Assembly: GCA_023380695.1 (NCBI GenBank)
Contig: JAMCRT010000030.1
Coordinates: 3,978 to 67,977 of the forward strand
Direction of reading: 5' to 3'
DNA length: 64,000 nt
DNA from: Patescibacteria group bacterium
GTDB lineage: Bacteria; Patescibacteriota; Dojkabacteria; JAKAPS01; JAJZLI01
In this document: piece after piece, positions 10,431 through 46,638 of the stretch
Layout of the letters: each line of letters begins with the position of its first letter
Numbering within the stretch: position 1 is the stretch's first letter
The notes under the pieces: generated by a model
What the model saw: the letters and a program-made list of their open reading frames with translations, nothing else
Told to the model about the DNA's origin: nothing
The model's database searches: none
Translations under genes and position numbers: made by a program

Positions 10431-11861
10431 TTAAAACATCAGAAGAAATAAGATATATGGAATAGTTAATATTTCATCTTTATAATCTAGAGCAAATTTT
10501 GTATCAATAATAATTCTCTTATCTATTTTAAGTTTCGAAGATAAACTACCAAAATTTCTTGAAAATCCTATATTACAAGAAGTAAGTCCATTTATTCCAT
10601 TTATAATAAAATCTATTTTTTTCTCTCTATCTCTGTAATATTCAATTGATGATCTATCAAATTTTTGAAGCAATGAAATAAGAACTATATTAGATATATA
10701 TTTTGAAAATAATACTGTGTCTGATAAAATTTCTTCTTCTCTAATTTTAAAAATACTATTTCTTATACCTATATCAATAAGAAAAATTTTAATGTTTGAA
10801 CTTTTATTGATATTCTCTCTGAATTTATTTATAGGAACAATAAGATTTGAATTGGTTAAAAGTTTTATATATCTTTCAAGAGTTTCTCTGTGCAAAGACA
10901 TCTCTTTTTTCAAAGAATTCAGGGAAATTTCATCTCCAAAATTTGAAGAAAGCTGAAAAAATAAATTTGAAAGCTGTGATGTATTTTTAATATCTTCTAA
11001 AATATATATATCTTGAAGTAGTACTTTTTCTATTTGGGTCTGATATAAATATTCATATTGTAATCCTCTCCCATGTATCTCCCAACCCTCTATAAATCCA
11101 CCTATCGTAAGATACTTATAAAATAGAGAAAACAATTCATCTTCAAATAAAGTCATATCTACCATAATATCTCTAAATTTTGAAAATACTTCTAGAAAAT
11201 TCATATTTTCAAAAGAAAAGTAAACTTCATGTATTGAAGATAATATTTTTAATATATTTTCTCTAAATGATGTACCTAAAAGATCATTTGAAAAAACATT
11301 AAACTCTACGAATTCATAAAATGAAAAAGGATATATTTTAAAATCTTTTATCCTCCCTGCTAAAGATTCCCTGCTTTTTGAAAGAATTGATGAAGATACA
11401 GAGCCTGATATTACAAACCTTATATTCATTCCCTTATCATAATATTTTTTCAAAAAAAGCTCCCATCCAGGAAATTTATGAATTTCATCTATAAAAAAGT
11501 ATATTTTTTCAGAACCAATCTTTTTCTTTAATATATACTTACTATATAAAGCAATAATATCATCAAAAACAGTATTTGGATCTCTAGATAATATATATGG
11601 ATCATCCATAGAAATATATAATATATTAGACGGAGAAATATCTGATTGTTTTGAAAGATCAAAAATAAGCTGTTTTAATATGGTAGTTTTACCTACTCTA
11701 CGAGGCCCAGTGATTGAAATTATCTGTTTTATACTATCTAAATTCTCTAAAATCGTAGAATACACATTTCTTCTAAAAACAGGAATGTCTAATAAATAAT
11801 CAATATTTTTAATATGTGGATTATAAAATTCTATTGTTTTAAGTAAGGTATAATCATCCAT
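10431..11861 (-). CDS. COG1373-type AAA+ ATPase (ATPase with DUF4143-like C-terminus)
   Basis: Walker A motif ITGPRRVGKTTILKQL. The length and architecture are typical of the archaeal/bacterial 'predicted ATPase (AAA+ superfamily)' family. Confidence 0.7.
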   Translation of the reverse strand: MDDYTLLKTIEFYNPHIKNIDYLLDIPVFRRNVYSTILENLDSIKQIISITGPRRVGKTTILKQLIFDLSKQSDISPSNILYISMDDPYILSRDPNTVFDDIIALYSKYILKKKIGSEKIYFFIDEIHKFPGWELFLKKYYDKGMNIRFVISGSVSSSILSKSRESLAGRIKDFKIYPFSFYEFVEFNVFSNDLLGTSFRENILKILSSIHEVYFSFENMNFLEVFSKFRDIMVDMTLFEDELFSLFYKYLTIGGFIEGWEIHGRGLQYEYLYQTQIEKVLLQDIYILEDIKNTSQLSNLFFQLSSNFGDEISLNSLKKEMSLHRETLERYIKLLTNSNLIVPINKFRENINKSSNIKIFLIDIGIRNSIFKIREEEILSDTVLFSKYISNIVLISLLQKFDRSSIEYYRDREKKIDFIINGINGLTSCNIGFSRNFGSLSSKLKIDKRIIIDTKFALDYKDEILTIPYILFLLMF

Positions 11862-12079
11862 TGAAATTAATATACACTAAACCATAAAAAATTGCAAACA
11901 ATATTTTCTGTAAGAATATAAAAGATTGTAGAATATATAAACATATAATAAGTTCTAGAAATTAGAGAAATATTGTTAGTAAAATAATAAATAGTGCCTT
12001 CCCCTCATAATTTTGCTCCAGTATATTGTTAAAAACTTAATTGAGTTTAAACTTTTCTTTGGTTTTTTCTCTAGTAAAA

Positions 12080-22127: not shown

Positions 22128-22387
22128 TGAATAAAAAAAAGGTGAAATTTGACAATTATACAGTTGAAATAATTAGATATACGGTCATTATTATACTAAT
22201 AATCATAAATATATATGTTCTCTCTTCCATATTTAAAGGAACACAAAATACTACATTTATGGTACCTGCATCTCCACAAATTAATACCACAGAACTAAAA
22301 AGTCTGGAAAATATTGTCTCCCCAAAACTCATTTATGGAAATAATTCTGTAGTACCTGTAGTTAATGTCCCAAATATATTCCACTAA
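22127..22387 (+). CDS. Small bitopic membrane protein (possible PilP-like accessory protein)
   Basis: One TM helix. Overlapping-stop coupling to the pilO-like gene. Confidence 0.3.
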   Translation: MNKKKVKFDNYTVEIIRYTVIIILIIINIYVLSSIFKGTQNTTFMVPASPQINTTELKSLENIVSPKLIYGNNSVVPVVNVPNIFH

Positions 22388-23093
22388 AATTCCTCTCAAA
22401 AAATCTTTAGGGCAAAATTTTATTACAAATAAAAAATATATCCCTAATCTATTATCTCTGATAAACAAAGAAGACTTAGTAATAGAGATAGGTCCAGGGA
22501 GTGGAAATATAACAGAAGCACTTTATAAAAAAACAGAAGATCTTATACTTATTGAAAAAGATGAAAGATTTGAGAGATTATTAAAAGAAAAATTTCCAAA
22601 AGCAAAGATCTATATTCAAGATGTTCTAGATTTTGATTTGTCTTTAATCCACCAATATAAAGTTGTTGGTGCGCTTCCTTATTATATTTCAAAAGATATA
22701 ATATCCAAATTTTTAAAAGGAGAAAACAGAGCAGAGACTATTTCTGTAATATTACAAAAAGAAGTTGCAGCAAAATACACTAAATCAGGACAGCTTTTAT
22801 ATAACACTCTACTAATTTATGCAGACACAATCATTGCAGATGCAAAAATTGCAAAAGAAAATTTTTATCCTAGACCTAAAATAGATTCACAAATTATACA
22901 TATAAAGGATATTCACAAATACAATAAAGAAGATAAATCTCTTGAAACATTTATAAAATCTGGATACAAAAATCCTCGAAAAAAATTAAAAGCAAGTATA
23001 GAAGTTCCATATGATTTTAAAGACCTAAGAGCACATGAACTTTCTTTTGAAGATTGGACAAAGCTATTTAAATTAAAAAGTGAAAATAGATAA
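22365..23093 (+). CDS. rsmA: 16S rRNA (adenine1518/1519-N6)-dimethyltransferase
   Basis: LGQNFITNKKYIPNLL...LVIEIGPGSGNITEAL is the KsgA signature. Confidence 0.9.
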   Translation: MSQIYSTKIPLKKSLGQNFITNKKYIPNLLSLINKEDLVIEIGPGSGNITEALYKKTEDLILIEKDERFERLLKEKFPKAKIYIQDVLDFDLSLIHQYKVVGALPYYISKDIISKFLKGENRAETISVILQKEVAAKYTKSGQLLYNTLLIYADTIIADAKIAKENFYPRPKIDSQIIHIKDIHKYNKEDKSLETFIKSGYKNPRKKLKASIEVPYDFKDLRAHELSFEDWTKLFKLKSENR

Positions 23094-23426
23094 AAATCTC
23101 AAAATATTATATATATCTCTGGATAATTCGGAAAGAGATTGAAGACCTTAAAAACTTGGCAATATATTCGATATTTCATAATTCAATCTGGACAAGTACA
23201 TATGTTTGAAGAAAGCACTTTAATTTCAATAGGTCACCCTTCTATTAGAAAATCTTTTTACACCTTTCCCATATTAGAGAACTTACTAAACATCAGAAAT
23301 CAATAGATTCTGCTATATTTTGTAGATTATTGAAAGAGAACTAATTGATCAAGCCAAGAAGATTATCCTCTAAGATCTGGATGAAATAAAACCTTTTCAA
23401 ATTGTGCCAAAGAAAAATAATTTTAA

Positions 23427-23720
23427 TTAAAAAATTATTTTATTTGCAATTTCTTTTGCATGACCTTCTTTAGCTATTTTTATTTGTTTATCAAAATTCT
23501 GGGGTTTATTGTTTGCTTTTTTTATATATCCAAAAGCATCCTCTAATGATAAAGGAGAAGCTTTAATCTTTACATTACTATTTTCTGCAACAAAAATAAC
23601 TTTAGTTTGTGGAGTTACTCCTAACAGCTTTCTAATTTGTACTGGCAGAGTTACTTGTCCTCTTTGCTGTACTGTTGATATGAATTCCTTTTTATATTGT
23701 ATTTTTGATAGATTTTTCAT
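23427..23720 (-). CDS. AbrB/MazE/SpoVT-family DNA-binding protein (antitoxin-like)
   Basis: RGQVTLPVQIRKLLGVTPQTKV is the swapped-hairpin AbrB-type domain. Confidence 0.65.
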   Translation of the reverse strand: MKNLSKIQYKKEFISTVQQRGQVTLPVQIRKLLGVTPQTKVIFVAENSNVKIKASPLSLEDAFGYIKKANNKPQNFDKQIKIAKEGHAKEIANKIIF

Positions 23721-23930
23721 GATACTATATCGTAATTAATTGTCATCATTAGTATATACTTTAACATGTTTTTTGTCAACCATTATATTGTAATTTATTA
23801 TGTAATTGCAACATAAGTTTACATTTTGTAATTATAAAAGTGTTTAAATAAATTAAATGTATGTATGTTGTATAAATTCATACATCAAGGTATAATGAAA
23901 ATATACATCTTATATTAGTATATTGTTGTT

Positions 23931-24356
23931 ATGGAAACTAAGGAAATGAAGTTTGTTGATACAAATATGTTTTTAAGATATTTTATCAATGACGACCAAG
24001 TTAAATCTAAAAAGGTTAGAGAATTATTTATAAGAGTTAAGGAAAATAAAAAAACTCTTTTTACTTCAGAATCAGTTATAGGAGAGATAATCTATGTACT
24101 TTCTTCAAAAAACTTACCTTACAATGTTCCAAGAAAAATAATTACTGAATTAATATTAACAATAATTAGGCTGAAAAACATGAAATTGGACAATAAGGCA
24201 ACCATAATAAGGGCATTAGATATATACGCCAACAATCTTCTAGACTTTGAAGATGCTATAGCAGTTTCTGTGATGGAATCTAAGAAAATTACAAAAATAT
24301 ATTCATATGATAATGATTTTGAAAAATTTAAAAAAATTGAAAGGATTGAGCCCTAA
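23931..24356 (+). CDS. PIN-domain protein (VapC-like toxin)
   Basis: FVDTNMFLRYF...DFEDAIAVSVM...YSYDNDFEKF are the PIN acidic residues. Confidence 0.7.
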   Translation: METKEMKFVDTNMFLRYFINDDQVKSKKVRELFIRVKENKKTLFTSESVIGEIIYVLSSKNLPYNVPRKIITELILTIIRLKNMKLDNKATIIRALDIYANNLLDFEDAIAVSVMESKKITKIYSYDNDFEKFKKIERIEP

Positions 24357-24470
24357 TGTACTAATTAGATAAGCTAGGAAAGAGCTAAGAGCGTTAGGTA
24401 GAACTATTTAAAGTAAAATATAGATAAAACCCCTCAAAATAATATATAGTTAGATATTTTTTATTACACC

Positions 24471-25349
24471 TCAGACTTCTTTTATGGATACCTTTGTTGT
24501 TTTACTTATTATCTTTGCTTGGAAGTACATAAAGAGACTTTGTACTACCCAATAAATAGATAATGCAGCTGGAATTGGACCTATTATCCCCAATGATATG
24601 ATAACAAGGAACACAGGCATAAAATATAACATCTGTTTAGACATAATAGAACCTATTACTTCAGGATCCATACCTGCTGACTCTTTCTTGCCTTTCTTTC
24701 CCTCTTTAATTTCTAATTTTGTACTTTCTTCCGCTATTTTTTCTTTAGTTGAAGGAAGCATTGCTTTTGTCACAAGATATTGAGAATAGCCTACTAACAA
24801 TGACAATACTATATATGGTATAGCTACTAAAGTAAAAATGTGCATTTCACTTGCATCCTTACTAATGTTACCAATAAGGAAAAAATTTAAATTATAGTGA
24901 TATGAAGCGGGATACTTCAAAAATGGAATATACATAATCTTATTTATAAAAGATGCGCTGTGTCCTGAAATCATTAAAATAGCCTCATATATAGCCCAAA
25001 GAAATGGTAATTGCACTATCAGAGACAAACAACTCCCATATGGACTTACCCCCTCTTCTTTGAATAACTTCATTTGTTCTTCTCTTAATTTCATAAGATC
25101 AGATTTATATTTTTTCTGTATTTCTTTCAATTTAGGCTGAACTTTTTGCATTTTGATAGAAGAAAGTATCTGAGATTTCAAAGTAGGCCATAGTAATATT
25201 CTTATAAGAATAGTTAGTATTATTATAGAAACACCAAAATTATTCCCCGCAATTTTATAAAAAAGAATAAATAAATTTAAAATTGGATGAAAAAAAATTG
25301 TATTCCAAAAAAATTGTATGTAATGCCAAATACTTATAAAAAAATTCAT
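24471..25349 (-). CDS. yidC: Membrane protein insertase YidC/Oxa1 (short form)
   Basis: ...GVSIIILTILIRILLWPL...QKVQPKLKEIQKKYK...SPYGSCLSLIVQLPFLWAIY. It lies downstream of rnpA. Confidence 0.9.
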   Translation of the reverse strand: MNFFISIWHYIQFFWNTIFFHPILNLFILFYKIAGNNFGVSIIILTILIRILLWPTLKSQILSSIKMQKVQPKLKEIQKKYKSDLMKLREEQMKLFKEEGVSPYGSCLSLIVQLPFLWAIYEAILMISGHSASFINKIMYIPFLKYPASYHYNLNFFLIGNISKDASEMHIFTLVAIPYIVLSLLVGYSQYLVTKAMLPSTKEKIAEESTKLEIKEGKKGKKESAGMDPEVIGSIMSKQMLYFMPVFLVIISLGIIGPIPAALSIYWVVQSLFMYFQAKIISKTTKVSIKEV

Positions 25350-26158: not shown

Positions 26159-26608
26159 ATGATATACATTTCATCAGATCACGCAGGATATAAGTTAAAG
26201 AGCGAAGCTATAGGATATCTCTCAGAAATTTCTGAAACCTTCGAAGACCTGGGGCCTTACAGTTTTGATAAAAAGGATAATTATCCATTATTTGCACAAA
26301 ATCTTTGTAAAAAAGTGCTTTCAAATAAAAATTCTTTAGGAATTCTTATTTGTGATACAGGTGAGGGGATGGTTATCTCTGCAAATAGATTTAAAGGAAT
26401 AAGAGCAACCCTGTGTTTAGATATATTTTTAACTGAAAGGTCAAAATTACATAATAATGCAAATGTTTTAGTACTTTCAGGTATCTATAATAAAGACAAT
26501 TACAAAGAAATTATTAGTACATTTATAAATACACCATTTTCAAACGAAGAAAGGCATAAAAAAAGAATAGATATGATTGATAAATATGATAATCCCAGCA
26601 ATTCTTGA
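26159..26608 (+). CDS. rpiB: Ribose-5-phosphate isomerase B
   Basis: MIYISSDHAGYKLK...LGILICDTGEGMVISANR is the RpiB/LacAB family. Confidence 0.9.
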   Translation: MIYISSDHAGYKLKSEAIGYLSEISETFEDLGPYSFDKKDNYPLFAQNLCKKVLSNKNSLGILICDTGEGMVISANRFKGIRATLCLDIFLTERSKLHNNANVLVLSGIYNKDNYKEIISTFINTPFSNEERHKKRIDMIDKYDNPSNS

Positions 26609-27209
26609 AAAAACAAAAGAAGACCTACTTTTAAGAATATCTCAGATAGAATCACTCACAGATATGGTACATATTGATATAATGGATGGGAGTATCACTG
26701 ATGAGAAAACCTTTCACCCATCACTAATAAAAAACATTAATATTCCATCAGAAATACATTTTATGTGCAATACACCTTCTTTATATATAAATGATATTAA
26801 TGGGGGATTAGTACAAAAAGTAATAATACAAAGAGAAATAGATAATTTTGAGAAAGAAATAAAAATATTTAAAGACCTATTCATAACATATGGATCTTTA
26901 GATATAGGTACACCAACAGATGATATTAAAGATTTTATAGATATCCTAGACGGAATAATGCTCATGAGCGTAAAATTTGGTAAAGCTGGACAAGAATTTA
27001 ACTCTACTGTTTTAGGTAAAATAGATAAAATAAAAAATTTTACAAATAATACAGAACTTGATGGGGGAATAACATTGGATAATGTTAAACTTTGCTATGA
27101 TAAAGGAATAAAGGATTTTGCAATAAGTAGTTCTATTTATAAATCAGAGAACATAAAAAAAACTATAGAAAATTTTAATAATGTATTATATGGGCAACTC
27201 AAGACATAA
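26577..27209 (+). CDS. rpe: Ribulose-phosphate 3-epimerase
   Basis: IIPAILEKTKEDL...VHIDIMDGSI... is the RPE TIM-barrel signature. Confidence 0.8.
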   Translation: MINMIIPAILEKTKEDLLLRISQIESLTDMVHIDIMDGSITDEKTFHPSLIKNINIPSEIHFMCNTPSLYINDINGGLVQKVIIQREIDNFEKEIKIFKDLFITYGSLDIGTPTDDIKDFIDILDGIMLMSVKFGKAGQEFNSTVLGKIDKIKNFTNNTELDGGITLDNVKLCYDKGIKDFAISSSIYKSENIKKTIENFNNVLYGQLKT

Positions 27210-27216
27210 AGATGTG
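27180..27216. repeat. Direct repeat A. It is the 3' end of rpe and is repeated at 28993-29028.
   Basis: aatgtattatatgggcaactcaagacataaagatgtg compared with aatgtattatatgggtaactcaggccctaaagagtg. About 31 of 37 positions match. Confidence 0.65.
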
Positions 27217-28992
27217 TAGTACACACACATATTGGACTTTAGGTGTGAATTTAAAATAAAATTTATAAAACTTTTAAAAAGATTATCATAAGAACTATCA
27301 AACAAGACTTTTTCAGCACTATTATTTAATTGGAAAAGACCCGGGCTACGACTACAGCCTGTACAATACTTAATCGTGTCAAAATCGTTTGTACCTATAC
27401 ATAATCGTTCCATGAAATACTTATGGTCTAGAAAACAATGTGTCAACAAAATTGTTATTCGTAATAACAGTAAACGTATTTTCAGGGTACAATGCATTAA
27501 ACTCATTAGGCAATTTGGCTTGCTTTTCCTTCCACTTAAACTCAAAAGCATTTACCTTCCCACTATACTCTTCAACAAGATCAATTTCTTTTTGGCTATA
27601 ACTACGCCAGAAAAAATAGTTTGGTTTATATTCTCCATATTCATTTGATTTTATTCTTTCAGTCACACAAAAGTTTTCCCACAATGCACCTACATCATTA
27701 CGTAAATCCAATTCATTAAAATTTCTAATAAGACTGTTGCGCAACCCAAGGTCTATGAAATATATTTTGCGTAGTTTTCCTACTTCGTTGCGCGGATTTC
27801 TTTTCAAGGCTGGAAGACGATAAATAACGAAAGTCTGCTCCAACAGAAAGATATATCTCTCAATAGTTTTGATATCTACCTCCAATAGGTTTGACAGTTC
27901 ACTAAGACTAACCTCATTTCCTAATTGTAGGGCCAAAGCTTGAAGCAGTTTGGTTAATAAAGGAGCCTTCTTGAGATTTTCATATTTCAATATGTCTTTA
28001 AATAAATAATTGGAACTTAGATCTGTAAGTGCATCAACGGCTTCACTGTCTGACATATTACATATCATTGGATATGAACCAAATATAAGCATCCTCTTCA
28101 TGACCTGATCTGTGACTAACCTGTCACCTTGAGTAATTTCTACAAATGAGAGTGGCTCTAAATGAAAAGTTCTTGATCTTCCAGTCAATGGCTCACTAAT
28201 TTTATTAGCAAGATCAAAACTAGAGCTCCCTGTCGCAATAATTTGCATTTCAGGATAATTTTCCACAAGAAGTTTTAAGGTGATCCCAATATTTTCTATT
28301 CTTTGAGCCTCATCAATTACCACAAGCTCGTAATCTCCTATAAAATTTTTTAATTCCATAGAACTTCTATTTGTCAGATTAGCGACCACACTTGGTTCAT
28401 CTCCATTCAAATATCGACCTTTTTTCGAAGATACCTCTAAAATTTTTTTGCTGAGAACAGTCTTTCCAACCTGGCGCGCACCATACAAAATGATAACTTT
28501 CCCTTTATAGAGATGCTTTTCAATATTATCTTGTAGCATTCGATGAAATATCATAACTAAATTATAGTAAATTGATAGACACAAGTCAACCAATTATATA
28601 TAAATTGGTAGACTTTATGTAAATAGTGCTTATTATTACTATCATCTCCTAAGTTTCTCTTAATTTAAGATATATGATATAGCAGTATTGGTTTAAGGGA
28701 TAAATTGGATATAATTTCTGGGCTGTCCAACTGGATACAATAAAAGGTGGCAAAATAATGTACTGGAGAATATATTATGTTAAAAGTAAGAACTATTAAA
28801 ACAGAGTTTTAGACAAAGCTCATAAAGAAAGCCATATTTTATATTATACTGGTAGGTGAATTAACAAACAGAAAATTTACTAAACGTCCGAAATTCCCAT
28901 ATTCTTATGTATTTTATAAATTGTTGAAAATTTACTAATTGGGCAAGTTAGGAAATATTAACCTAAATATATCAACCCTCTATAGACGACAC
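27217..28992. mobile_element. Inserted cassette of about 1.8 kb, flanked by 37-bp direct repeats, carrying a COG1373 AAA+ ATPase
   Basis: It sits between convergent rpe and zwf. The flanking repeats equal the rpe 3' end. Repeat copy B carries CAA>TAA, so it reads NVLYG*. Confidence 0.45.
27421..28593 (-). CDS. COG1373-type AAA+ ATPase (DUF4143-like), second paralog
   Basis: ILYGARQVGKTVLSKKIL is the Walker A motif. VVIDEAQRI is the Walker B motif. Confidence 0.7.
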   Translation of the reverse strand: MVDLCLSIYYNLVMIFHRMLQDNIEKHLYKGKVIILYGARQVGKTVLSKKILEVSSKKGRYLNGDEPSVVANLTNRSSMELKNFIGDYELVVIDEAQRIENIGITLKLLVENYPEMQIIATGSSSFDLANKISEPLTGRSRTFHLEPLSFVEITQGDRLVTDQVMKRMLIFGSYPMICNMSDSEAVDALTDLSSNYLFKDILKYENLKKAPLLTKLLQALALQLGNEVSLSELSNLLEVDIKTIERYIFLLEQTFVIYRLPALKRNPRNEVGKLRKIYFIDLGLRNSLIRNFNELDLRNDVGALWENFCVTERIKSNEYGEYKPNYFFWRSYSQKEIDLVEEYSGKVNAFEFKWKEKQAKLPNEFNALYPENTFTVITNNNFVDTLFSRP

Positions 28993-29028
28993 AATGTATT
29001 ATATGGGTAACTCAGGCCCTAAAGAGTG
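28993..29028. repeat. Direct repeat B (see 27180-27216). It overlaps the last codons of zwf on the opposite strand.
   Basis: Seen directly in the sequence. Confidence 0.65.
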
Positions 29029-30360
29029 TTTTTTATAAATTAAAGGTTTAATATTCTTAATTCTTTTTTCAAATCTATCTGTTATTTGCCATGCTGTTTC
29101 TATTTCATCTGTACTGGCAAAATTCATTTGTTTACCTTGAATACAATCAATTAGCAATTTTTCGTATTCACTTTTAAGCTCACCAAAATAATTAGTATAT
29201 AAATATTCCATTTTTATATTTGTAACTTTGTTTTCCTCCCCGGGAACTTTTCCCCCAAAATTAAGGTATATGCCTAACTCTGGCTGAATCATAAAATCTA
29301 AAATGTTTTGTGAAAAATCTCCACTGAATGATTCTTGTGGTATTTTTTTAAAATAAACCTTAATGTTAGTATCTTTATTTTTAAGATCCTTGCCAGATTT
29401 TATATATATTGGAACATTCCTCCATCTCTTACTTTTTAAAAACACTTTAGTAAATAAAAATGTTTCTCTAAGAGATGTTTTAGATACATTCTCTTCATCT
29501 GTATATCCTTCATATTGTCCTTTTATGAATTCTCCCAACCTAACTTTTTGCAAAATCTTGTTTTTCTCTCTTCTTATATGCTCATCATTCATAATTTTTG
29601 GCTTATTCATTGTAATAATGGAGAGCATTTGTAGTATATGGTTTTGAAAAACATCTATTAATACACCTGTTTCTTCATAAAATATCCCTCTTTTTTCAAT
29701 CCCAATATCTTCAAGTAAATTTATTTCTATCTTAGATATAAATTTATTATTCCAAATATTTTCAAAAACATTATTTACAAATCTAAATGCCAAAATATTT
29801 TGTATTGGCTCTTTTCCTAAATAATGATCAATCCTAAATATTTGAGTCTCTTTAAATAAAGAAAGGAGCAGCCTGTTAATTCTTTTTGTACTAGAAAGAT
29901 CATATCCAAAAGGTTTTTCAAGTATTATACGTGTAAATGTTTTGTGCTCTATACACTCTTTTTGCAGTCCTACCTTTCCAATACTAGATATAATCTCCTC
30001 ATATGATAGAGGAGGAACTGCAAGGTAAAATATCCTAGATCTACACCTAGATAAAAGATATTGAGAAAGAGAATTCATATCGTCAGTACTTGTAAAATCA
30101 CATTTTTTATAAATAATTTTTCCAAAAAATTCTTCTATTTTATCTTTGTTTTCTATAAAAGGAGTAAATGTTGAGAGAAATTCATCTCTTTCTATCTCTT
30201 TTCTTCCCAAGGCTATAATATTTATCTTATCTTTGTATTTAACATCCTTATATAAATTATAGAGAGCGGGAAAAAGCTTTCTGTGAGATAAATCTCCCGT
30301 TGAACCAAATATTATAAAGTCTAGCCCCTCATCAACTATTTTAGAACAAGGATTATTCAT
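28999..30360 (-). CDS. zwf: Glucose-6-phosphate 1-dehydrogenase
   Basis: IIFGSTGDLSHRKLFPALYNLY is the NADP-binding motif. RIDHYLGKE is the active-site motif. Confidence 0.9.
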   Translation of the reverse strand: MNNPCSKIVDEGLDFIIFGSTGDLSHRKLFPALYNLYKDVKYKDKINIIALGRKEIERDEFLSTFTPFIENKDKIEEFFGKIIYKKCDFTSTDDMNSLSQYLLSRCRSRIFYLAVPPLSYEEIISSIGKVGLQKECIEHKTFTRIILEKPFGYDLSSTKRINRLLLSLFKETQIFRIDHYLGKEPIQNILAFRFVNNVFENIWNNKFISKIEINLLEDIGIEKRGIFYEETGVLIDVFQNHILQMLSIITMNKPKIMNDEHIRREKNKILQKVRLGEFIKGQYEGYTDEENVSKTSLRETFLFTKVFLKSKRWRNVPIYIKSGKDLKNKDTNIKVYFKKIPQESFSGDFSQNILDFMIQPELGIYLNFGGKVPGEENKVTNIKMEYLYTNYFGELKSEYEKLLIDCIQGKQMNFASTDEIETAWQITDRFEKRIKNIKPLIYKKHSLGPELPI

Positions 30361-31636
30361 CTATTTTTTCTAATTTATATTTTAAATCTTTAAATTCCTC
30401 TTTTCCAAGTAATGCATACATATACTGCTTCCCTTTCTCAACTCCTGGCTGATTAAATGTGTCTACACCTAATAGAAATCCAAGGTATGATACAGACAAT
30501 TCAAAAAAATAAAATAATCCTCCAATATTTTCTTCATTTATTTTGTCTAGATATATGGTTCCGTTTGCTCTACTATTTTCCATTAAAGATATAGATGTAG
30601 ATTTTCTTTCAATATGAATAATATCATTAAAACTTTTCTTATATAGATAATCTGCCTCTTTAGTTAAAGTATCAATCTCTACTAATTCATCAAACTGAGA
30701 AACTTCAATAAAAGTGATGATTTTATCGTTTGGTCCATCATTATAAAGCTGAATTTGAGAGTGCTGATCAGTTGACCCAAGAGACGCTATTGGAGTAATT
30801 CCTATATTATTACCCTCTTTATCTTTTTTCCCTAGTGATTCTGCCCAAAGCTGTCTATACCAAAATCCAAAATTATGTAATTTAGCCGAATATGGCATAA
30901 CAACAGACATATTCTTCCCAAACTTTTTATAATTTATAAAATTAAGCTCTGCAAACATTAAAGGATCATTCTCTTTAGGCTCTCCATTTTCTGTTTTTTT
31001 ATCTATATCTTTTGCACCTTCTAAAAATTTATCTATATCAAGACCTAATACGTCAGCTGTCAAAAGCCCAATAACTGATAGGGCAGAGAATCTATCTCCT
31101 ACATCTTTTTTGCCTTCTATTATTTTTAAACTAAATTTTCTGCCTAAATTCAAAAGAGTACTGCCCTCTTCAGCTGTTGTTATTATAATATGATCTTTTA
31201 CTTTATCTTCTCCTAATTTATCTTTTATCTGAGAGACAATATATAAAAAATTTGAAATCACCTCTACAGTCTCTCCAGATTTTGATATAACATTAAAAAT
31301 ACAATCCTTTATATCTATGTTCTCAAAAAAATCTGAGATTTCCATAGGATCAGTATTGGCTCCAATAAATAAAACCTCAGTGTTACTTTTTGATTTAAAT
31401 GCTTCTGCAATCACTCTTGATCCAAGATCTGAGCCCCCAATACCAACAATCACATAATACTTAAATTTACTCCTAATAAACTCTCCCACTTTCTTTATCT
31501 TAGATGTATCATCAAAAATAAGATCTCTAAAGGTAAGACTCTCTTTTGAAAAATTTATCTGAAAAAAATCGTACTGTGAAGGAGAATTTTCTTTAATACT
31601 GGGATAAATCATGTATTTATAGTCGTATGTAATCAT
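30353..31636 (-). CDS. pgi: Glucose-6-phosphate isomerase (short bacterial/archaeal type)
   Basis: YYVIVGIGGSDLGSRVI is the PGI motif. It is translationally coupled to zwf. Confidence 0.8.
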   Translation of the reverse strand: MITYDYKYMIYPSIKENSPSQYDFFQINFSKESLTFRDLIFDDTSKIKKVGEFIRSKFKYYVIVGIGGSDLGSRVIAEAFKSKSNTEVLFIGANTDPMEISDFFENIDIKDCIFNVISKSGETVEVISNFLYIVSQIKDKLGEDKVKDHIIITTAEEGSTLLNLGRKFSLKIIEGKKDVGDRFSALSVIGLLTADVLGLDIDKFLEGAKDIDKKTENGEPKENDPLMFAELNFINYKKFGKNMSVVMPYSAKLHNFGFWYRQLWAESLGKKDKEGNNIGITPIASLGSTDQHSQIQLYNDGPNDKIITFIEVSQFDELVEIDTLTKEADYLYKKSFNDIIHIERKSTSISLMENSRANGTIYLDKINEENIGGLFYFFELSVSYLGFLLGVDTFNQPGVEKGKQYMYALLGKEEFKDLKYKLEKIDE

Positions 31637-31694
31637 TCTTTATATATATCCCAAATTTTTTAAATTTGCAAATTTTATAGATAGATTTAACTTA

Positions 31695-31722
31695 ATAATG
31701 TGATTGGCGAAATTCAGATAAG
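31695..31722. repeat. 28-nt motif, copy 1 (taatgtgattggcgaaattcagataagg)
   Basis: About 23 of 28 positions match the copy at 32975-33002. Confidence 0.55.
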
Positions 31723-31856
31723 GTTAACAAGACAATAAAAAAATGTTAATCATAATAATGAGAATGAATACGGGAAGTAGTCTTAGATATTTTCAAGTTC
31801 TGTGTACAACTGGCTGTAAATAAAATAACACAAATGGATTTAACCATTCATAATTA

Positions 31857-32282
31857 TTACATAAATGGATTTATAACATTAATTTCACTAAATTTTTTAA
31901 ATACTTTTTCATCAGCAGTATACACCGTGTTAACATTGTTTGTAATCATTGTAGCCACAAGATATGTATCAAAAATCTCTGCATTGTTTACCTTTTTCTG
32001 TTTTAGTAACAACAACAATAACCCTATTGTTTGAGAATTGGGGCTTATAACTGTGAAATTATCAGTGACACTGTATACTTTCAGAACCTTTAATGCATCT
32101 TCATGTATAACTGGATATTCTATACGCCTCTTGTCTGTAATTACGGAATATAATTCAAGAAGGTTTTGCTGTGCTATACAAATGTTGTCTTCCATTTCAT
32201 AAAGTGCTCGAGCTTTTTCATAAAAAGTAGAGTGCGTGTTATAGGCATAAACTAAGATATTTGTATCAAAAAGCACCCTCAT
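31857..32282 (-). CDS. vapC: PIN-domain toxin
   Basis: MRVLFDTNILVYAY... Confidence 0.75.
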   Translation of the reverse strand: MRVLFDTNILVYAYNTHSTFYEKARALYEMEDNICIAQQNLLELYSVITDKRRIEYPVIHEDALKVLKVYSVTDNFTVISPNSQTIGLLLLLLKQKKVNNAEIFDTYLVATMITNNVNTVYTADEKVFKKFSEINVINPFM

Positions 32283-32517
32283 AAATATCCTTTCGTTTTA
32301 ATGAACTTATTTTGCCAAGATTCTTACTTGGTAATATTATAGTTTTTTTTCTCTTTACCATTAAACTTTTTTGTTCTGCGCTATCCTTACTTAAAAAATA
32401 TTCCATCGCAATTCGTATAGAATTATTAAAAGACATCTTGGTTTCTCTTGCCAAACTCTTGTACTCGACTACAAGAACTTTAGGTATTCTAATTGTTGTT
32501 TTTATATTTTGATCCAT
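32266..32517 (-). CDS. vapB: Ribbon-helix-helix (CopG/VapB-like) antitoxin. Start taken at the internal Met MDQNIK.
   Basis: TIRIPKVLVVEYKSLARETKMSFNNSIRIAMEYFL is an RHH fold. It overlaps vapC by 17 nt. Confidence 0.6.
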   Translation of the reverse strand: MDQNIKTTIRIPKVLVVEYKSLARETKMSFNNSIRIAMEYFLSKDSAEQKSLMVKRKKTIILPSKNLGKISSLKRKDIYEGAF

Positions 32518-32688
32518 ATTAAATATACTAACACAAAGACACGGTGCCGTCAAGTTGATAACTGATGACGGAAATGAATTTTTATTACAAATACAATATA
32601 CATTGACACAATTAGACATGTATACCATATGGTCATGGATAGTATAACCCAAGATAACATAGTATATACACCAGAATAAGTATCTCAA

Positions 32689-32910
32689 ATGCTACAAGTG
32701 AGCACTAATACCATATATTCACTAATAAAGAAAGGTGATATTGTCGCTAAAAAATTTGGAAGTGTGTATAGAATTCTAAAAGGTTTCATTTTCTTTATTT
32801 TTAGTGGAATGGATTACGATATTTATTTAAAAGAAAGAGAGGATTATAAAAATATAGATAAAGTAGAGAGAGAACTATCTATGATTAGAAACTCTAGTAA
32901 AATTTCGTGA
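32689..32910 (+). CDS. Excisionase-family (HTH_17 / MerR-like) DNA-binding protein
   Basis: VSTNTIYSLIKKGDIVAKKFGSVYRI. Confidence 0.55.
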   Translation: MLQVSTNTIYSLIKKGDIVAKKFGSVYRILKGFIFFIFSGMDYDIYLKEREDYKNIDKVERELSMIRNSSKIS

Positions 32911-32974
32911 AAATTTAGATTCTGATGTTATCATTTCATCCTTTATTTCATCCACTGGTGCTTCATATTATCTA

Positions 32975-33013
32975 GTAATGTGACTGGCGAATTAGAAAAA
33001 GGCAGTCACATTA
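32975..33013. repeat. 28-nt motif, copy 2. It is embedded in a palindrome AATGTGACTG-N16-CAGTCACATT.
   Basis: taatgtgactggcgaattagaaaaaggcagtcacatta. Confidence 0.55.
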
Positions 33014-33144
33014 TTAACATTCTTTTCTATTAATATCTAATTCTCTTTAAATATAAACAAAATTATAGATTCTCTGCGTCTGAATTTTGACAAAATGTAT
33101 ATTTATTATATATAATCTGCTTTATTTTAAAATATATATAAAAT

Positions 33145-33852
33145 ATGCAAAATTTTGAAAATGGAACTTCTTTATATGTTATAGAGGATACAAAGATACC
33201 TTTACCATTCATAGATATTGAGTTAAATAATATTATCTCTAATAAAAATTATTCCCTAGAAATAAAAGAGTCTAGAATTGGGGACTTATTGGGCAAAGTT
33301 CTAGAACAAATAGGTAATGAAATTAATAATGACTTAACTGAAATAGATATAGATCCATTACTTCCTATAATACAAACAATGGACAAATTTCAAAAAGAAA
33401 CAGTAGGATTACAAAATGACAATATATATCTCTTTAATCTCTTAAAATCTCAGATAATAAAGGATTACTATGAAAAGAGTCTCCCGATATCTGGCAATTG
33501 GGAAGATCAATTTCAGGGCAAAGACGATCTAAGTATCAACTTAAATGAAGTCACAAATATGGTTGAGTCTTTTTTTGTATTCATAAAAGAGTTTACTGAT
33601 AAGTTAGATGTACACAAAGATAGAGAAGGGTATAAGTTTATTACAGCAGAAACTATTACTGTATTCTTAAAATTTTATCAAGTTACAAATCTTTGGGAAA
33701 TTTTTAAATCTCATAATTATTACGATAGAAATAACCTAAAATTACAAATTGTATGCCTTACTAAAGATATAGACTCTATTTTTAGAAAAAATTTTGGAAA
33801 ACCCACTGTATCTATTTTTAGAGCATTCCTAAAACAAAGAATTATGCAATAA
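33145..33852 (+). CDS. Hypothetical protein
   Basis: Intact 235 aa ORF with no recognisable family. Confidence 0.4.
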   Translation: MQNFENGTSLYVIEDTKIPLPFIDIELNNIISNKNYSLEIKESRIGDLLGKVLEQIGNEINNDLTEIDIDPLLPIIQTMDKFQKETVGLQNDNIYLFNLLKSQIIKDYYEKSLPISGNWEDQFQGKDDLSINLNEVTNMVESFFVFIKEFTDKLDVHKDREGYKFITAETITVFLKFYQVTNLWEIFKSHNYYDRNNLKLQIVCLTKDIDSIFRKNFGKPTVSIFRAFLKQRIMQ

Positions 33853-33855
33853 AAC

Positions 33856-44885: not shown

Positions 44886-45245
44886 ATGATAAAAAACAAA
44901 GAAGAGATAACAGAATATTTATCTTCAATTCCACCTTATTGTGAAAAATGTGGAACAATGTATAACAAAGATAAGGTTGAAGTTATTGATAAAAATCAAA
45001 ATATGACAATTATTTACATAATGTGTGAAAATTGTAAAACAAAAAATGTCTTCTATGTAGTAAAACCTATGAACTTTGTTAGTAGGGCAAATTTAATAGT
45101 AGACCTTGATATGGAAGAAATAAAAAAATTTGCAGGATCAAGAAAAATAGACTCTAATGATATATTAAATGTCTTTGATCTTTTATCCACTAAGAAAGCT
45201 AAAAACTCAAAGGATTTTTTAAAAATTATTAATAGTAATGTTTAA
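44886..45245 (+). CDS. Zinc-ribbon hypothetical protein
   Basis: CEKCG...CENCK pair. Confidence 0.35.
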   Translation: MIKNKEEITEYLSSIPPYCEKCGTMYNKDKVEVIDKNQNMTIIYIMCENCKTKNVFYVVKPMNFVSRANLIVDLDMEEIKKFAGSRKIDSNDILNVFDLLSTKKAKNSKDFLKIINSNV

Positions 45246-45504
45246 AAAAATATCTGTAAATAAAATATCCTTAATACAAAATGAAATAGAAATAAAAAAA
45301 ATATTAAACAGATATTTTTTAAAACACCTTAAAGAAGATTTTGATGAATTTATTATATTTAAAAATTTTAGTAATAACACCTTAAGCCTTATAATTAAAG
45401 AACCAACACTTGCTCAATATATAAATCTTGATAAAAAAAATATATTAAATATTCTTAATAAAAAATTTGAAATTTCTGATATAAAAATTAAAGTTGGAAA
45501 TTAA
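45238..45504 (+). CDS. DUF721 (DciA-like) small protein. Tentative.
   Basis: Its size and C-terminal pattern (...LSLIIKEPTLAQYINLDKKNILNILNKKF...IKIKVG) fit DUF721. It sits next to dnaN. Confidence 0.25.
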   Translation: MFKKISVNKISLIQNEIEIKKILNRYFLKHLKEDFDEFIIFKNFSNNTLSLIIKEPTLAQYINLDKKNILNILNKKFEISDIKIKVGN

Positions 45505-46638
45505 TTATCTCTCATATAATGGCATTATTAAATATGTATAATTACCAAGGTTTTTATCTATAATTTTAGATACTTTTCTAGATTCTGAACTGTTTAATTC
45601 AATTGAAATTTTTTCACCATCGCTGTGGTTTAAAAAATCCATTATATAATTTGCATTAAAATTAACACTTATATCTTTACCTTCAATTTTTGTTTTTATA
45701 GATGAATTTAGATCTCCAACTTCTTTTAATCCAGAATTAAATTCTACTTTATTTTCAATTGAATTAAACAGTTCAGAATCTATAGATATTTCTTTAAATT
45801 TAAAAGGTGTTGAAAGTTTTAAAATATTTTTTAAGTCCTCCCTTTTAATTTCAAATGATGTTGAATAGAATTCTGGAAATATTTTTTTGTAATCTGGATA
45901 TTTTCCTTGTATAATTCTTGATATAAATTTTATATTTTCTATTTCAAAAAGTATTTGATTTCCAGAAATCATATATATATACATAGATACATTATCTTCA
46001 AAATTTTTAGTTTTTATAATATCTGAAATATTATCAAGAGCTTCTTTTGAAATAACTAGATTGTCTATAGAAGATTTTATATCTTCGCTTTCTATTGATA
46101 TACTGGCTAATCTAAAACCATTAATTCCAATAAAGTTTATATTTTTTTCGTCAAATTCCATTAAAACACCTGTTAAAATAGGTCTTGCTTTATCTTTGGA
46201 TGTTGCAAAAGATACTTTATCTATAGCAAAAGATAAAGCATTTGGATTTATTTTTATAAAATAATCTGTATCCTTGTCTCTATCAGGAATATCTGGATAT
46301 TCATCTGTTGGAATTGTATTTAAACTAATTTCATTTTTTTTGTCTTTTATATAAAGAGTGTTGTCTTGTAATAATATATTTATAATACTAGATTTTAAAT
46401 TTGCTATTATTTCGTAGAAATTTTTTAAATTTATTGTGCATTCACCTTTTTCTATAACCTCTATACCTACAATAGTAATTGCACTCTGTTCTAAATTTGT
46501 ACTTTTAATTACTAGTTTTTTCCCATCCACTAAAAGTAGTGCATTATTTAAAATAGGAATAGATGTTCTAACAGGAACTGTTTTTATATTTAAACTTAAA
46601 GCCTCAAGTAAGTTTTCTCTTTTTATTCTAATATTCAT
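45505..46638 (-). CDS. dnaN: DNA polymerase III beta sliding clamp
   Basis: MNIRIKRENLLEALSLNIKTVPVRTSIPILNNALLLV. Three-domain length. Downstream of dnaA. Confidence 0.9.
   Translation of the reverse strand: MNIRIKRENLLEALSLNIKTVPVRTSIPILNNALLLVDGKKLVIKSTNLEQSAITIVGIEVIEKGECTINLKNFYEIIANLKSSIINILLQDNTLYIKDKKNEISLNTIPTDEYPDIPDRDKDTDYFIKINPNALSFAIDKVSFATSKDKARPILTGVLMEFDEKNINFIGINGFRLASISIESEDIKSSIDNLVISKEALDNISDIIKTKNFEDNVSMYIYMISGNQILFEIENIKFISRIIQGKYPDYKKIFPEFYSTSFEIKREDLKNILKLSTPFKFKEISIDSELFNSIENKVEFNSGLKEVGDLNSSIKTKIEGKDISVNFNANYIMDFLNHSDGEKISIELNSSESRKVSKIIDKNLGNYTYLIMPLYER

What the first reader, a model, noticed from the sequence alone, without database searches (positions are those of the whole stretch)
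27180..29028. A COG1373 AAA+ ATPase cassette inserted between convergent rpe and zwf, flanked by 37-bp direct repeats of the rpe 3' end
The last 30 nt of rpe plus 7 nt downstream recur 1.8 kb away, abutting the zwf stop, in a decayed copy (CAA>TAA gives NVLYG*). The segment between the repeats carries only an oppositely oriented AAA+ ATPase of the DUF4143 type, plus about 400 bp of non-coding DNA. This looks like site-specific insertion with target duplication into a pentose-phosphate operon. The ATPase family is a frequent cargo or defence-island gene, and a second paralog (10431-11861) lies next to a transposase-like remnant.
Basis: seen in the sequence. Interest (0 to 1): 0.65.

Follow-up and report, generated by a model that had tools for sequence, protein, structure and literature searches.

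The report
Transposon-delivered ATPase gene splitting two overlapping genes
A horizontally acquired ATPase-nuclease gene (a candidate phage-defence gene) was inserted into the 24-base overlap of two sugar-metabolism genes in a tiny Patescibacteria genome. A 38-base duplication of the target, probably made by an IS1634-type insertion sequence, let both genes keep their ends.

Summary
Window 27180-27217 and 28993-29029 are direct repeats (33 of 38 positions identical, one 1-nt indel; no shuffle reaches the score). They bracket a 1.78-kb insert between convergent rpe and zwf.

The insertion reading is confirmed. A relative (L010, zwf 72% identical) has rpe and zwf overlapping by exactly 24 nt with no insert. 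The cassette (promoter, AAA_14/DUF4143 ATPase, 43 nt) is 89.7% identical in DNA to a copy at a different site (dnaN 3' end) of another Patescibacteria genome, whose housekeeping genes are only 64-70% identical.

After duplication, each copy kept only one gene's reading frame.

The roughly 400 bp of "non-coding" DNA holds a near-consensus promoter and a 236-bp internally deleted IS1634-family element. Intact copies of that IS in sister genomes carry perfect target duplications of 77-140 bp. A second insert in the same window (PIN toxin plus IS relic, between ksgA and yidC) has a ~50-bp duplication.

Best explanation: IS1634-family delivery with a long target duplication, not integrase-type site-specific insertion.

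Still unexplained: bare ATPase cassettes in other lineages also carry 39-209-bp flanking repeats with no IS trace.

The ATPase matches PADLOC candidate PDC-S01; its defence function is untested.

The parts
26159..26608 (+). rpiB (ribose-5-phosphate isomerase B), upstream of rpe
   Evidence: Pfam LacAB_rpiB, E=3.5e-42.
26586..27209 (+). rpe (ribulose-phosphate 3-epimerase), intact. Its last 30 nt form most of repeat copy 1.
   Evidence: Pfam Ribul_P_3_epim, E=1.3e-24. Translation ends NVLYGQLKT*. Aligns with the rpe of L009 and L010.
27180..27217 (.). Direct repeat copy 1 (38 nt). The rpe frame is intact. The zwf frame has decayed (SLCLELPI*: the invariant Gly-Pro is lost, and a 1-nt indel lies upstream).
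   Evidence: Positions 27186-27209 correspond to the 24-nt rpe/zwf overlap seen in the empty site of L010.
27218..27343 (.). Left part of the insert, non-coding. Possibly a remnant of a second IS copy: an IR-like site with its tip at 27343, and 24 nt resembling the mini-IS transposase N-terminus region. This is weak.
   Evidence: PWM hit of 14.0 at 27343(-), which is within the random range (~14.4). 27289-27312 vs 28787-28810 is 83% identical (D7, p~0.02). No other homology was found.
27344..27359 (-). Weak terminator-like hairpin downstream of the ATPase.
27378..28625 (-). Cassette core shared with the copy at the dnaN site of another genome: 71 nt of promoter region, the ATPase ORF and 43 nt downstream.
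   Evidence: blastn gives 89.7% over 1250 nt to L011 5930-7173, while the syntenic housekeeping DNA is 64-70% identical. 4-fold sites are 76.6% identical, against 53-60% in housekeeping genes. GC is 0.33-0.35 against 0.26-0.28 in the flanks.
27421..28554 (-). AAA_14 + DUF4143 ATPase (377 aa): an AAA+ domain, a winged helix and a C-terminal PD-(D/E)XK-type motif. It matches PADLOC candidate PDC-S01.
   Evidence: Pfam matches. PADLOC PDLC04789, E=5.5e-143, profile positions 1-373 of 375. Walker A, Walker B, D325 and E338-x-K340 are conserved. AF2 model with pLDDT 90. Foldseek hits are to ORC/Cdc6-type AAA+ proteins.
28561..28589 (-). Sigma-70-type promoter TTGACT-17-TATAAT (11 of 12), 7 nt upstream of the ATG.
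   Evidence: It is conserved in all cassette copies: nucleotide homology always begins 52-71 nt upstream of the ATG.
28560..28613 (-). Two 21-22-nt direct repeats (GTCTAYCAATTTA..TATAATT) 33 nt apart. One overlaps the -10 element. This is an operator-like arrangement; function is inferred only.
   Evidence: Read from the sequence. The same pair occurs in L011 (D4).
28717..28952 (+). Internally deleted IS1634-family element (236 bp). It keeps both terminal inverted repeats, the first ~9 transposase codons (MLKVRTIKT) and the 3' end of the transposase gene.
   Evidence: The IR PWM ranks its two ends 1st and 2nd in the window (20.2 and 17.5 bits). 28859-28915 is 79% identical to L012 3897-3841. 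Alignment to the intact IS. The intact transposase matches NCBIfam NF033559 IS1634, E=1e-91. The relic has no target duplication of its own.
28953..28992 (.). 40-bp spacer between the IS end and repeat copy 2. Origin unexplained.
   Evidence: It is not a decayed extension of the repeat: 75% of shuffles score as high.
28993..29029 (.). Direct repeat copy 2 (37 nt). The zwf frame is intact (SLGPELPI*). The rpe frame is broken by CAA>TAA. It keeps the ancestral GGCCC also seen in L010.
28999..30360 (-). zwf (glucose-6-phosphate dehydrogenase), short C-terminal form ending 5 residues after the invariant Gly-Pro.
   Evidence: Pfam G6PD_N and G6PD_C. Alignment with L008 and L009, which are about 17 residues longer. 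The same short form occurs in P0002/L010.
30353..31636 (-). pgi (phosphoglucose isomerase), upstream of zwf in the same operon.
   Evidence: Pfam PGI. The same order is seen in L009.
23064..24448 (.). Second insertion of the same style, between convergent ksgA (22365-23093) and yidC (24471-25349). A ~50-bp direct repeat (23064-23113 / 24404-24448) includes the ksgA 3' end. It flanks a 1290-bp insert holding an IS1634 relic (23114-~23360), a MazE/AbrB-like ORF (23427-23720, -) and a PIN toxin (23931-24356, +).
   Evidence: Repeat score 45, 0/300 shuffles. Sequences. The blocks matching ksgA and yidC are adjacent genes in L009. IS relic. Pfam.
45241..45510 (.). Junction of a small ORF and the dnaN 3' end, unoccupied here. 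In L011-L017 the 92%-identical ATPase cassette sits at this junction.
10431..11861 (-). Distant paralog (23% identical) with the same AAA_14 + DUF4143 architecture. It has no flanking repeat.

Best explanation
A 1.78-kb piece of foreign DNA was inserted into the 24-nt overlap of the 3' ends of convergent rpe and zwf. It carries a self-contained gene cassette (its own near-consensus promoter plus an AAA+/PD-(D/E)XK ATPase of the PADLOC candidate family PDC-S01) and IS1634-family insertion-sequence DNA.

The insertion duplicated 38 bp of target: the overlap plus 6 and 8 nt on either side. Each gene therefore kept a complete 3' end. The two copies then specialised. The copy next to rpe lost the zwf reading (Gly-Pro became Cys-Leu, plus a frameshift upstream). 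The copy next to zwf lost the rpe reading (Gln codon became a stop).

The duplication was most likely made by an IS1634-family transposase. That family is known for long target duplications of variable length. The ATPase arrived either as cargo between two IS copies (a composite unit), or by recombination into an IS already resident at the site. The IS parts later decayed by internal deletion.

Shown: the repeat, the empty site, the recent horizontal origin of the cassette, the IS relic, and long target duplications by live copies of this IS.

Inferred: that the transposase made this particular duplication, the order of events, and the ATPase's function (an ATP-dependent DNA-binding nuclease, possibly defensive).
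For: Repeat.

Empty site: in L010, zwf (631-1995) and rpe (1972-2175) overlap by 24 nt. L009 has pgi-zwf><rpe-rpiB with a 6-nt overlap.

Polarity of decay: L010 and copy 2 share GGCCC, which encodes the Gly-Pro invariant in zwf. Copy 1 has AAGACA at that position.

Foreign origin: 89.7% nt identity to L011 against 64-70% for syntenic genes. 4-fold sites are 76.6% identical against 53-60%. GC is elevated. The same cassette lies at the dnaN site in L011-L017, and the window's own dnaN site is empty.

IS relic in the insert. It has no duplication of its own, while the whole insert does.

IS family: NF033559, 308 bits against a cut-off of 100.

Live copies make long duplications flush with their ends: 126 bp perfect in L012 compared with L011; 78, 77, ~140 and 104 bp at L053, L055, L057 and L063.

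Literature: IS1634 and IS1549 give direct repeats of 8-514 bp (PMC2266710).

A second insert in this window, with an IS relic and a different cargo (PIN), has a ~50-bp repeat. The dnaN-site ATPase insert carries an IS relic and a 54-56-bp repeat.

The IS end-motif CCTGAGTT lies inside the duplicated target here and in the L063 duplication.
Against: - The IS relic is not flush with the repeat: 40 unexplained bp lie between them.
- No inverted IS end is detectable at the other boundary (27218). The proposed left IS remnant is within random score range.
- 38 bp is shorter than the 77-140 bp seen for fresh copies of this IS.
- Bare ATPase cassettes in other lineages have 39-, 41- and 209-bp flanking repeats with no IS1634 trace in the DNA held (L027, L023, L045). 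The repeat therefore does not strictly need an IS inside the insert.
- IS relics might accumulate next to accessory genes simply because those are the few safe landing sites in a compact genome.
Confidence: 0.6

Rival explanations
1. The cassette moves by itself. The encoded AAA+ ATPase with its PD-(D/E)XK nuclease domain, or another cassette-intrinsic feature, cuts the target with a long stagger and inserts the ~1.25-kb unit. The IS relic is an unrelated later insertion.
For: Bare cassettes of 1247, 1272 and 1344 bp are flanked directly by 39-, 41- and 209-bp repeats in L027, L023 and L045, with no IS sequence. The cassette's 5' end lies 79-85 nt upstream of the ATG in three independent cases. 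Among 52 long ORFs tested, 4 of the 5 with flanking repeats are these ATPases. The nuclease motif D325/E338-x-K340 is conserved. Structural neighbours include the transposition ATPases MuB and TnsC.
Against: Long repeats also flank non-ATPase cargo: a PIN module in the window and a YafQ toxin-antitoxin module in L056. The insert ends are not conserved and have no terminal repeats. The extra DNA carried differs between copies: 6 vs 160 bp at the 3' side in L011 and the window. Only about 6 of 26 loci show repeats, and none of 4 plasmid copies do. The Foldseek similarity covers only the generic AAA+ fold. The control compared against core genes, not against other recently gained genes.
Confidence: 0.1
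2. IS-independent illegitimate recombination. A foreign DNA fragment, for example taken up from a co-resident Patescibacteria species, was joined into a staggered break, and repair synthesis produced the duplication. Only events that duplicated the whole overlap survived, because any other insertion would have truncated rpe or zwf.
For: The insert ends are variable and lack defined termini. Donor-like and recipient lineages occur in the same sample, ERZ27237490. The duplication covers the overlap almost exactly (24 nt plus 6 and 8 nt), as selection would demand. All three insertions in this lineage lie at tight convergent 3' junctions.
Against: It does not explain why IS1634 relics lie in all three inserts of this lineage. 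It does not explain why an IS end-motif lies inside the duplicated target. In L023 the repeat is intergenic, so selection cannot account for it there. No end-joining machinery was looked for or is known here.
Confidence: 0.2
3. Integrase-type site-specific recombination. The repeats would be attL and attR sharing an identity segment with an attP on a circular cassette.
For: The repeats are direct, of att-like length, and lie at gene 3' ends. One relative (L023) sits downstream of a tRNA gene.
Against: No integrase or recombinase lies in or near the insert. The same cassette has unrelated repeat sequences at each site. The repeat sequence is present once in the empty site as ordinary coding DNA. 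No attC-like or other RNA/structure family was hit.
Confidence: 0.03
4. No insertion: an old, fixed gene order with a chance repeat.
For: All contigs carrying the identical zwf also carry the ATPase.
Against: Those contigs are one strain. L010 and L009 lack the insert. The repeat is far beyond chance. The cassette is far younger than the host genes.
Confidence: 0.01

Closest known systems
IS1634 / IS1549 (IS1634 family) insertion sequences with long, variable-length target duplications
   Same: The relic in the insert is homologous to an IS whose transposase passes the NCBIfam IS1634 model. Live copies in sister genomes have flush, perfect duplications of 77-140 bp. This matches the 8-514 bp reported for IS1634 and IS1549 (PMC2266710).
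   Different: Here the duplication brackets a larger unit (IS remnant plus a passenger gene), not the IS itself. The IS end is 40 bp from the repeat. The host is a Patescibacteria (CPR) genome, whereas the classic cases are Mycoplasma and Mycobacterium.
Composite transposons and passenger-carrying IS derivatives (transporter IS, mobile insertion cassettes, ISEcp1-style capture of adjacent DNA). This comparison rests on my own knowledge of the field, not on a tool result.
   Same: A non-transposase gene lies with IS end sequences inside one target duplication. A second example has different cargo (PIN).
   Different: Only one IS copy is clearly recognisable. The second end is not demonstrable. 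The IS parts are already degraded.
PDC-S01, a PADLOC 'phage defence candidate' (AAA_14 + DUF4143; COG1373)
   Same: Full-length match to PDLC04789. The ATPase plus PD-(D/E)XK architecture agrees with the description in PMC12988326 and PMC3424549.
   Different: Defence activity is unvalidated for the family and was not tested here. This copy is a solitary gene among housekeeping genes, not in a defence island.
ORC/Cdc6-type and 'archaeal ATPase' AAA+ proteins (e.g. PDB 2fna SSO1545, 2qby)
   Same: These are the best structural matches of the predicted model over the AAA+ domain, lid and winged helix.
   Different: Sequence identity is 11-18%. Those proteins lack the C-terminal D...ExK nuclease-type module. 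There is no sequence-level PDB relative.

Membership tests
PADLOC PDC-S01 (candidate defence ATPase) | Match to a PDC-S01 profile HMM over the full length | tested here: met
   PDLC04789, E=5.5e-143, 474 bits, profile positions 1-373 of 375.
PADLOC PDC-S01 (candidate defence ATPase) | Protection against phage | not testable with these tools
   The family is described as experimentally unvalidated (PMC12988326).
Pfam AAA_14 + DUF4143 (COG1373) | Both domains above gathering score, in that order | tested here: met
   AAA_14 scores 93.8 bits (cut-off 27) and DUF4143 scores 133.9 bits (cut-off 28.1).
PD-(D/E)XK nuclease superfamily (C-terminal module) | Conserved D ... (D/E)xK catalytic motif on an alpha-beta-beta-beta-alpha-beta core | tested here: met
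   D325 is invariant. E338 and K340 are at least 90% conserved in 30-34 homologs. Predicted elements H288-306, E312-317, E323-330, E333-339, H350-355 and E360-364 fit the core. DUF4143 is listed in this superfamily (PMC3424549).
PD-(D/E)XK nuclease superfamily (C-terminal module) | Structural match to a solved nuclease of the superfamily | tested here: inconclusive
   The whole-chain Foldseek search is dominated by AAA+ hits. No nuclease appears among the top 50. The C-terminal domain was not searched on its own.
IS1634 family insertion sequence (the relic at 28717-28952) | Transposase matching the IS1634 family model | tested here: met
   The intact homologous IS (L012 3815-5308) matches NF033559 at E=1e-91, 308 bits against a cut-off of 100. 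The window copy keeps only ~9 N-terminal codons and 57 nt of the 3' end.
IS1634 family insertion sequence (the relic at 28717-28952) | Terminal inverted repeats of the element | tested here: met
   A PWM built from IRs of other loci ranks 28952(-) and 28717(+) first and second in the window, at 20.2 and 17.5 bits against a random top score of ~14.4.
IS1634 family insertion sequence (the relic at 28717-28952) | Target duplication flanking the element | tested here: not met
   No repeat flanks the 236-bp relic itself. The 38-bp repeat flanks the whole 1.78-kb insert. Intact copies elsewhere do have flush duplications.
Composite transposon (IS-cargo-IS) | Two IS copies bracketing the cargo, with outer ends next to the target duplication | tested here: inconclusive
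   The right copy is clear but lies 40 bp from the repeat. The left copy (27218-27343) rests on a PWM hit within random range and a 24-nt match with p~0.02. No outer inverted repeat is present at 27218.
Integrase-mediated genomic islet | Tyrosine or serine recombinase gene and a constant att core | tested here: not met
   There is no such gene in the insert. The repeats differ at every site.

The most novel reading that the evidence does not exclude
PDC-S01 cassettes (promoter plus AAA+/PD-(D/E)XK gene, about 1.25 kb) would be autonomous single-gene mobile elements. Their own product would cut the target with a stagger of about 40 bp or more and produce the long flanking duplications seen at bare cassettes in several phyla. 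One of the most abundant 'defence candidates' in prokaryotes would then be, at least partly, a selfish transposable gene.
Probability: 0.08. Interest if true: 0.85.

Novelty: new member of a known kind. Interest (0 to 1): 0.5.

Why it matters
It is an unusually clean natural record of how a very compact genome gains an accessory gene. The DNA landed inside a 24-nt overlap of two essential-pathway genes. A long target duplication rescued both gene ends, and the two copies then each lost the frame they no longer needed.

It extends IS1634-type long target duplications to Patescibacteria and links them to the spread of toxin and PDC-S01 cargo.

It also raises a testable question about PDC-S01, reported as the fourth most common 'defence' locus in prokaryotes and still unvalidated. 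How do its solitary cassettes move, and why are about a quarter of those examined here flanked by long duplications of 38-209 bp?

Tried and rejected
- Extending the repeat leftwards to meet the IS end (28954-28992 vs rpe coding): not significant.
- A relic of the longer zwf C-terminus in 27210-27420: none. The 75/121-aa ORF at 27186-27551(-) has no family and only shares the repeat-encoded LELPI*, so it is probably spurious.
- ncRNA in the insert: no Rfam match at E<=1.
- Phage carriage: no relative in the viral contigs.
- Terminal inverted repeats at the ends of seven repeat-flanked inserts: none convincing.
- General preference of the IS for targets resembling its own ends: not supported. 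Only the window repeat, and partly L063, score. The empty site in L010 is not IR-like, at 5.0 bits.
- Plasmid-borne homologs as extra test cases: 4 tested, no flanking repeats.
- Sequence search of solved structures: nothing.
- A transposase remnant beside the paralog at 10431-11861: not verified.
- Flanking repeat for the toxin/HTH island at 31637-34041: marginal and not at the boundaries, so treated as chance.
Full report
**What is at the locus**

The window is a ~27% GC Patescibacteria (CPR) genome. The same strain is present in GCA_021843725.1 and in several ENA and Logan assemblies. The gene order is:

- rpiB (26159-26608, +)
- rpe (26586-27209, +)
- a minus-strand AAA_14 + DUF4143 ATPase (27421-28554, ATG start)
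- zwf (28999-30360, -)
- pgi (30353-31636, -)

The reported repeat is real.

- The repeat finder gives 29/33 identity.
- Gapped alignment gives 27180-27217 vs 28993-29029, with 33 of 38 columns identical and one 1-nt indel. No shuffle reaches its score.
- Its 22-nt core occurs nowhere else in 64 kb.

Copy 1 is the end of rpe. Copy 2 contains the stop and the last codons of zwf.

**It is an insertion, and the empty site exists**

The closest non-identical zwf (P0002, 72% identical) lies on contig L010. There, zwf (631-1995) and a convergent rpe (1972-2175) overlap by exactly 24 nt and nothing lies between them. The equivalent 24 nt in the window are 27186-27209, inside copy 1.

A more distant relative (L009, zwf 54-55% identical) has pgi-zwf converging on rpe-rpiB with a 6-nt overlap. 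The duplicated 38 bp is therefore the ancestral overlap plus 6 and 8 nt on either side.

The two copies have since specialised.

- Copy 2 keeps GGCCC, as in L010. This encodes the Gly-Pro that is invariant in zwf. It carries CAA>TAA in the rpe frame.
- Copy 1 keeps the rpe frame, now ending KT* instead of RP*. In the zwf frame it reads Cys-Leu instead of Gly-Pro, and it has a 1-nt indel just upstream.

**The cassette is foreign and recently moved**

The ATPase has homologs at 92% amino-acid identity in another Patescibacteria lineage (L011-L017). There it sits at a different place, between a small ORF and the 3' end of dnaN. The window's own dnaN junction is unoccupied.

| Comparison, window vs L011 | Cassette | Syntenic housekeeping genes |
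|---|---|---|
| DNA identity | 89.7% (window 27378-28625 vs L011 5930-7173) | 64-70% |
| Identity at 4-fold degenerate sites | 76.6% | 53-60% |
| GC content | 0.33-0.35 | 0.26-0.28 (flanks) |

The shared segment runs from 71 nt upstream of the ATG to 43 nt past the stop. More distant homologs (72-78% amino-acid identity) are solitary genes in unrelated housekeeping contexts. Their nucleotide homology always starts 52-71 nt upstream of the ATG, so the promoter travels with the gene.

**What the 'non-coding' DNA is**

- Just upstream of the ATG lies TTGACT-17-TATAAT. It is overlapped by two 21-22-nt direct repeats spaced 33 nt apart, which are also present in L011.
- No Rfam family matches the insert.
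- Positions 28717-28952 are an internally deleted insertion sequence. It keeps both terminal inverted repeats, the first transposase codons and the 3' end of the transposase gene. All of these align to a 1617-bp IS in L012.
- A PWM built from inverted repeats of other loci ranks the two ends of this relic first and second in the window.
- The intact transposase is an IS1634-family member (NF033559, E=1e-91).

**This IS makes long target duplications**

- L012 differs from L011 by this IS, which is flanked by a perfect 126-bp duplication.
- A 72%-related transposase (P0244) is encoded by 100%-identical IS copies at five or more sites in related genomes. These carry flush, perfect duplications of 78, 77 and ~140 bp. 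A further relative has 104 bp.
- The literature reports repeats of 8-514 bp for IS1634 and IS1549, with no known mechanism (PMC2266710).

Three further observations tie the window's repeat to this IS.

1. The mini-IS has no duplication of its own, whereas the whole insert does.
2. A second insert in the same window lies between ksgA and yidC, which are adjacent in L009. It carries another IS1634 relic plus a MazE-like ORF and a PIN toxin. It is flanked by a ~50-bp repeat that includes the ksgA 3' end.
3. The dnaN-site ATPase insert holds an IS relic and a 54-56-bp flanking repeat.

The 38-bp repeat itself also contains an IS-end-like sequence, CCTGAGTTACCCATATAA. It ranks 3rd and 4th in the window by the PWM. 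The empty site in L010 does not resemble it.

**Mechanism proposed**

IS1634-family transposition delivered the cassette and produced the 38-bp duplication. Either a composite IS-cargo unit transposed, or an IS inserted first and the cassette then recombined in through IS homology. The IS parts subsequently decayed.

Weak points:

- A 40-bp unexplained spacer lies between the IS end and the repeat.
- No recognisable outer IS end is present at 27218. The putative left remnant (27218-27343) is statistically marginal.

**An unexplained generalisation**

I tested the flanks of about 26 loci carrying relatives of this ATPase. Significant direct repeats bracket the gene in six lineages:

| Locus | Flanking repeat | Insert | What the repeat duplicates |
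|---|---|---|---|
| Window | 38 bp | ATPase cassette + IS relic | rpe/zwf 3' overlap |
| L012 lineage | ~55 bp | ATPase cassette + IS relic | DNA abutting the dnaN stop |
| L023 | 41 bp | bare 1272-bp cassette | intergenic DNA after a tRNA terminator |
| L027 | 39 bp | bare 1247-bp cassette | 5' end of a methyltransferase gene |
| L042 | 111 bp | hicAB + ATPase | 3' end of tatD |
| L045 | 209 bp | bare 1344-bp cassette | 3' end of a PaaD-like gene |

Among 52 long ORFs tested as controls, four of the five with such repeats were these ATPases. The bare cassettes show no IS1634 trace in the DNA held. This keeps open a cassette-intrinsic mechanism.

Against that idea:

- Non-ATPase cargo (PIN in the window, a YafQ module in L056) has the same kind of repeat.
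- Insert ends are not conserved.
- Four plasmid copies have no repeats.

**The protein**

The match to PADLOC PDC-S01 is full-length. Walker A, Walker B and a C-terminal D325...E338-x-K340 motif are conserved. This fits the PD-(D/E)XK assignment of DUF4143 (PMC3424549).

A confident AF2 model (pLDDT 90) shows an AAA+ domain, a helical lid, a winged helix and an alpha/beta C-terminal module. Foldseek finds ORC/Cdc6-type AAA+ proteins, RuvB, MuB and TnsC. There is no sequence-level PDB relative.

PDC-S01 is reported as very abundant but experimentally unvalidated (PMC12988326). The inferred function is an ATP-dependent, DNA-binding nuclease, possibly defensive and possibly autoregulated through the promoter repeats.

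**Verdict**

The insertion-with-target-duplication reading is confirmed by an empty site. 'Site-specific' should be replaced by IS1634-type transposition with a long target duplication.

This is a new member of known kinds (IS-borne cargo; a PDC-S01 gene). It has an instructive twist, the rescue and later specialisation of an overlapped pair of gene ends. It also leaves an open lead on how PDC-S01 cassettes spread.

Noticed in passing
window 23064-24448: A second insertion lies between convergent housekeeping genes (ksgA and yidC, which are adjacent in L009). A ~50-bp direct repeat that includes the ksgA 3' end flanks an IS1634 relic, a MazE/AbrB-like ORF and a PIN toxin. The copy next to yidC is a decayed ksgA end (LFKVKYR*).
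   Followed up: yes
window 27184-27203 and 28997-29016: The duplicated target itself resembles the IS terminal inverted repeat (CCTGAGTTACCCATATAA vs CCTGAGTTGTCCAATTAG). It ranks 3rd and 4th of all window positions by the PWM. The empty site in L010 is not IR-like. The IS tip motif CCTGAGTT also occurs inside the 104-bp duplication in L063. Whether this reflects target choice is unexplained.
   Followed up: partly
L023 4878-4918/6191-6231; L027 2880-2918/4166-4204; L042 2103-2213/4141-4253; L045 1251-1459/2804-3013: Relatives of the ATPase in other lineages are bracketed by direct repeats of 41, 39, 111 and 209 bp. These duplicate ends of neighbouring genes or intergenic DNA. Three of the inserts are bare ~1.25-1.34-kb cassettes with no IS sequence.
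   Followed up: partly
L053, L055, L057, L063, L012: An active IS1634-family element (~1.6 kb, with 100%-identical copies at five or more sites) occurs in related Patescibacteria MAGs. Its target duplications are flush and perfect, at 78, 77, ~140, 104 and 126 bp.
   Followed up: yes
L056 3140-6021 and L012 3661-7228: In two genomes a fresh IS copy, with its own 80- or 126-bp duplication, has landed inside the left copy of an older long repeat that flanks a cargo insert (a YafQ module in L056, the ATPase in L012). The shared geometry suggests a preferred landing zone at old insert boundaries.
   Followed up: partly
L054 vs L057: The same IS has an identical 3.4-kb right flank (a Fic-domain gene and a 608-aa gene) but different left flanks in two genomes. 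L054's right flank carries L057's left duplication. This looks like IS-mediated rearrangement or co-mobilised cargo.
   Followed up: no
window 28560-28613 (-): Two 21-22-nt direct repeats (GTCTAYCAATTTA..TATAATT) lie 33 nt apart around the ATPase promoter, one over the -10 element. They are conserved in L011. Other family members have different repeats or palindromes at the same place. They may be operator sites.
   Followed up: partly
window 28999-29060; L010 1930-1995; L008/L009 zwf 3' ends: zwf in the window and in L010 ends 5 residues after the invariant Gly-Pro. That is about 17 residues shorter than in L008 and L009. Their rpe is 6-7 residues longer than in L009. The 24-nt overlap therefore arose in their common ancestor, before the insertion.
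   Followed up: partly
window 31637-34041: tal and pgi are adjacent in L009. Here they are separated by a 2.4-kb island holding a PIN toxin, a 140-aa ORF, an HTH_17 ORF and a 235-aa ORF of no known family. No convincing flanking repeat was found.
   Followed up: partly
window 27186-27413 (-): A 75-aa ORF called as a gene in the public MAG annotations is built from the cassette's 3' flank plus repeat copy 1. It has no family match and is probably not a gene.
   Followed up: partly
window 10431-11861 and 11862-12524: A paralogous AAA_14/DUF4143 ATPase (476 aa, 23% identical; also PDC-S01 by PADLOC) has no flanking repeat. It is followed by 660 bp without a convincing ORF.
   Followed up: partly
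L013 1034-2230 and 306-706: One strain variant of the dnaN-site locus carries a second, divergent DUF4143 ATPase (398 aa) upstream of the first. Another IS1634 fragment and an inverted repeat lie beside it. The site is a small mosaic of IS pieces and ATPases.
   Followed up: no
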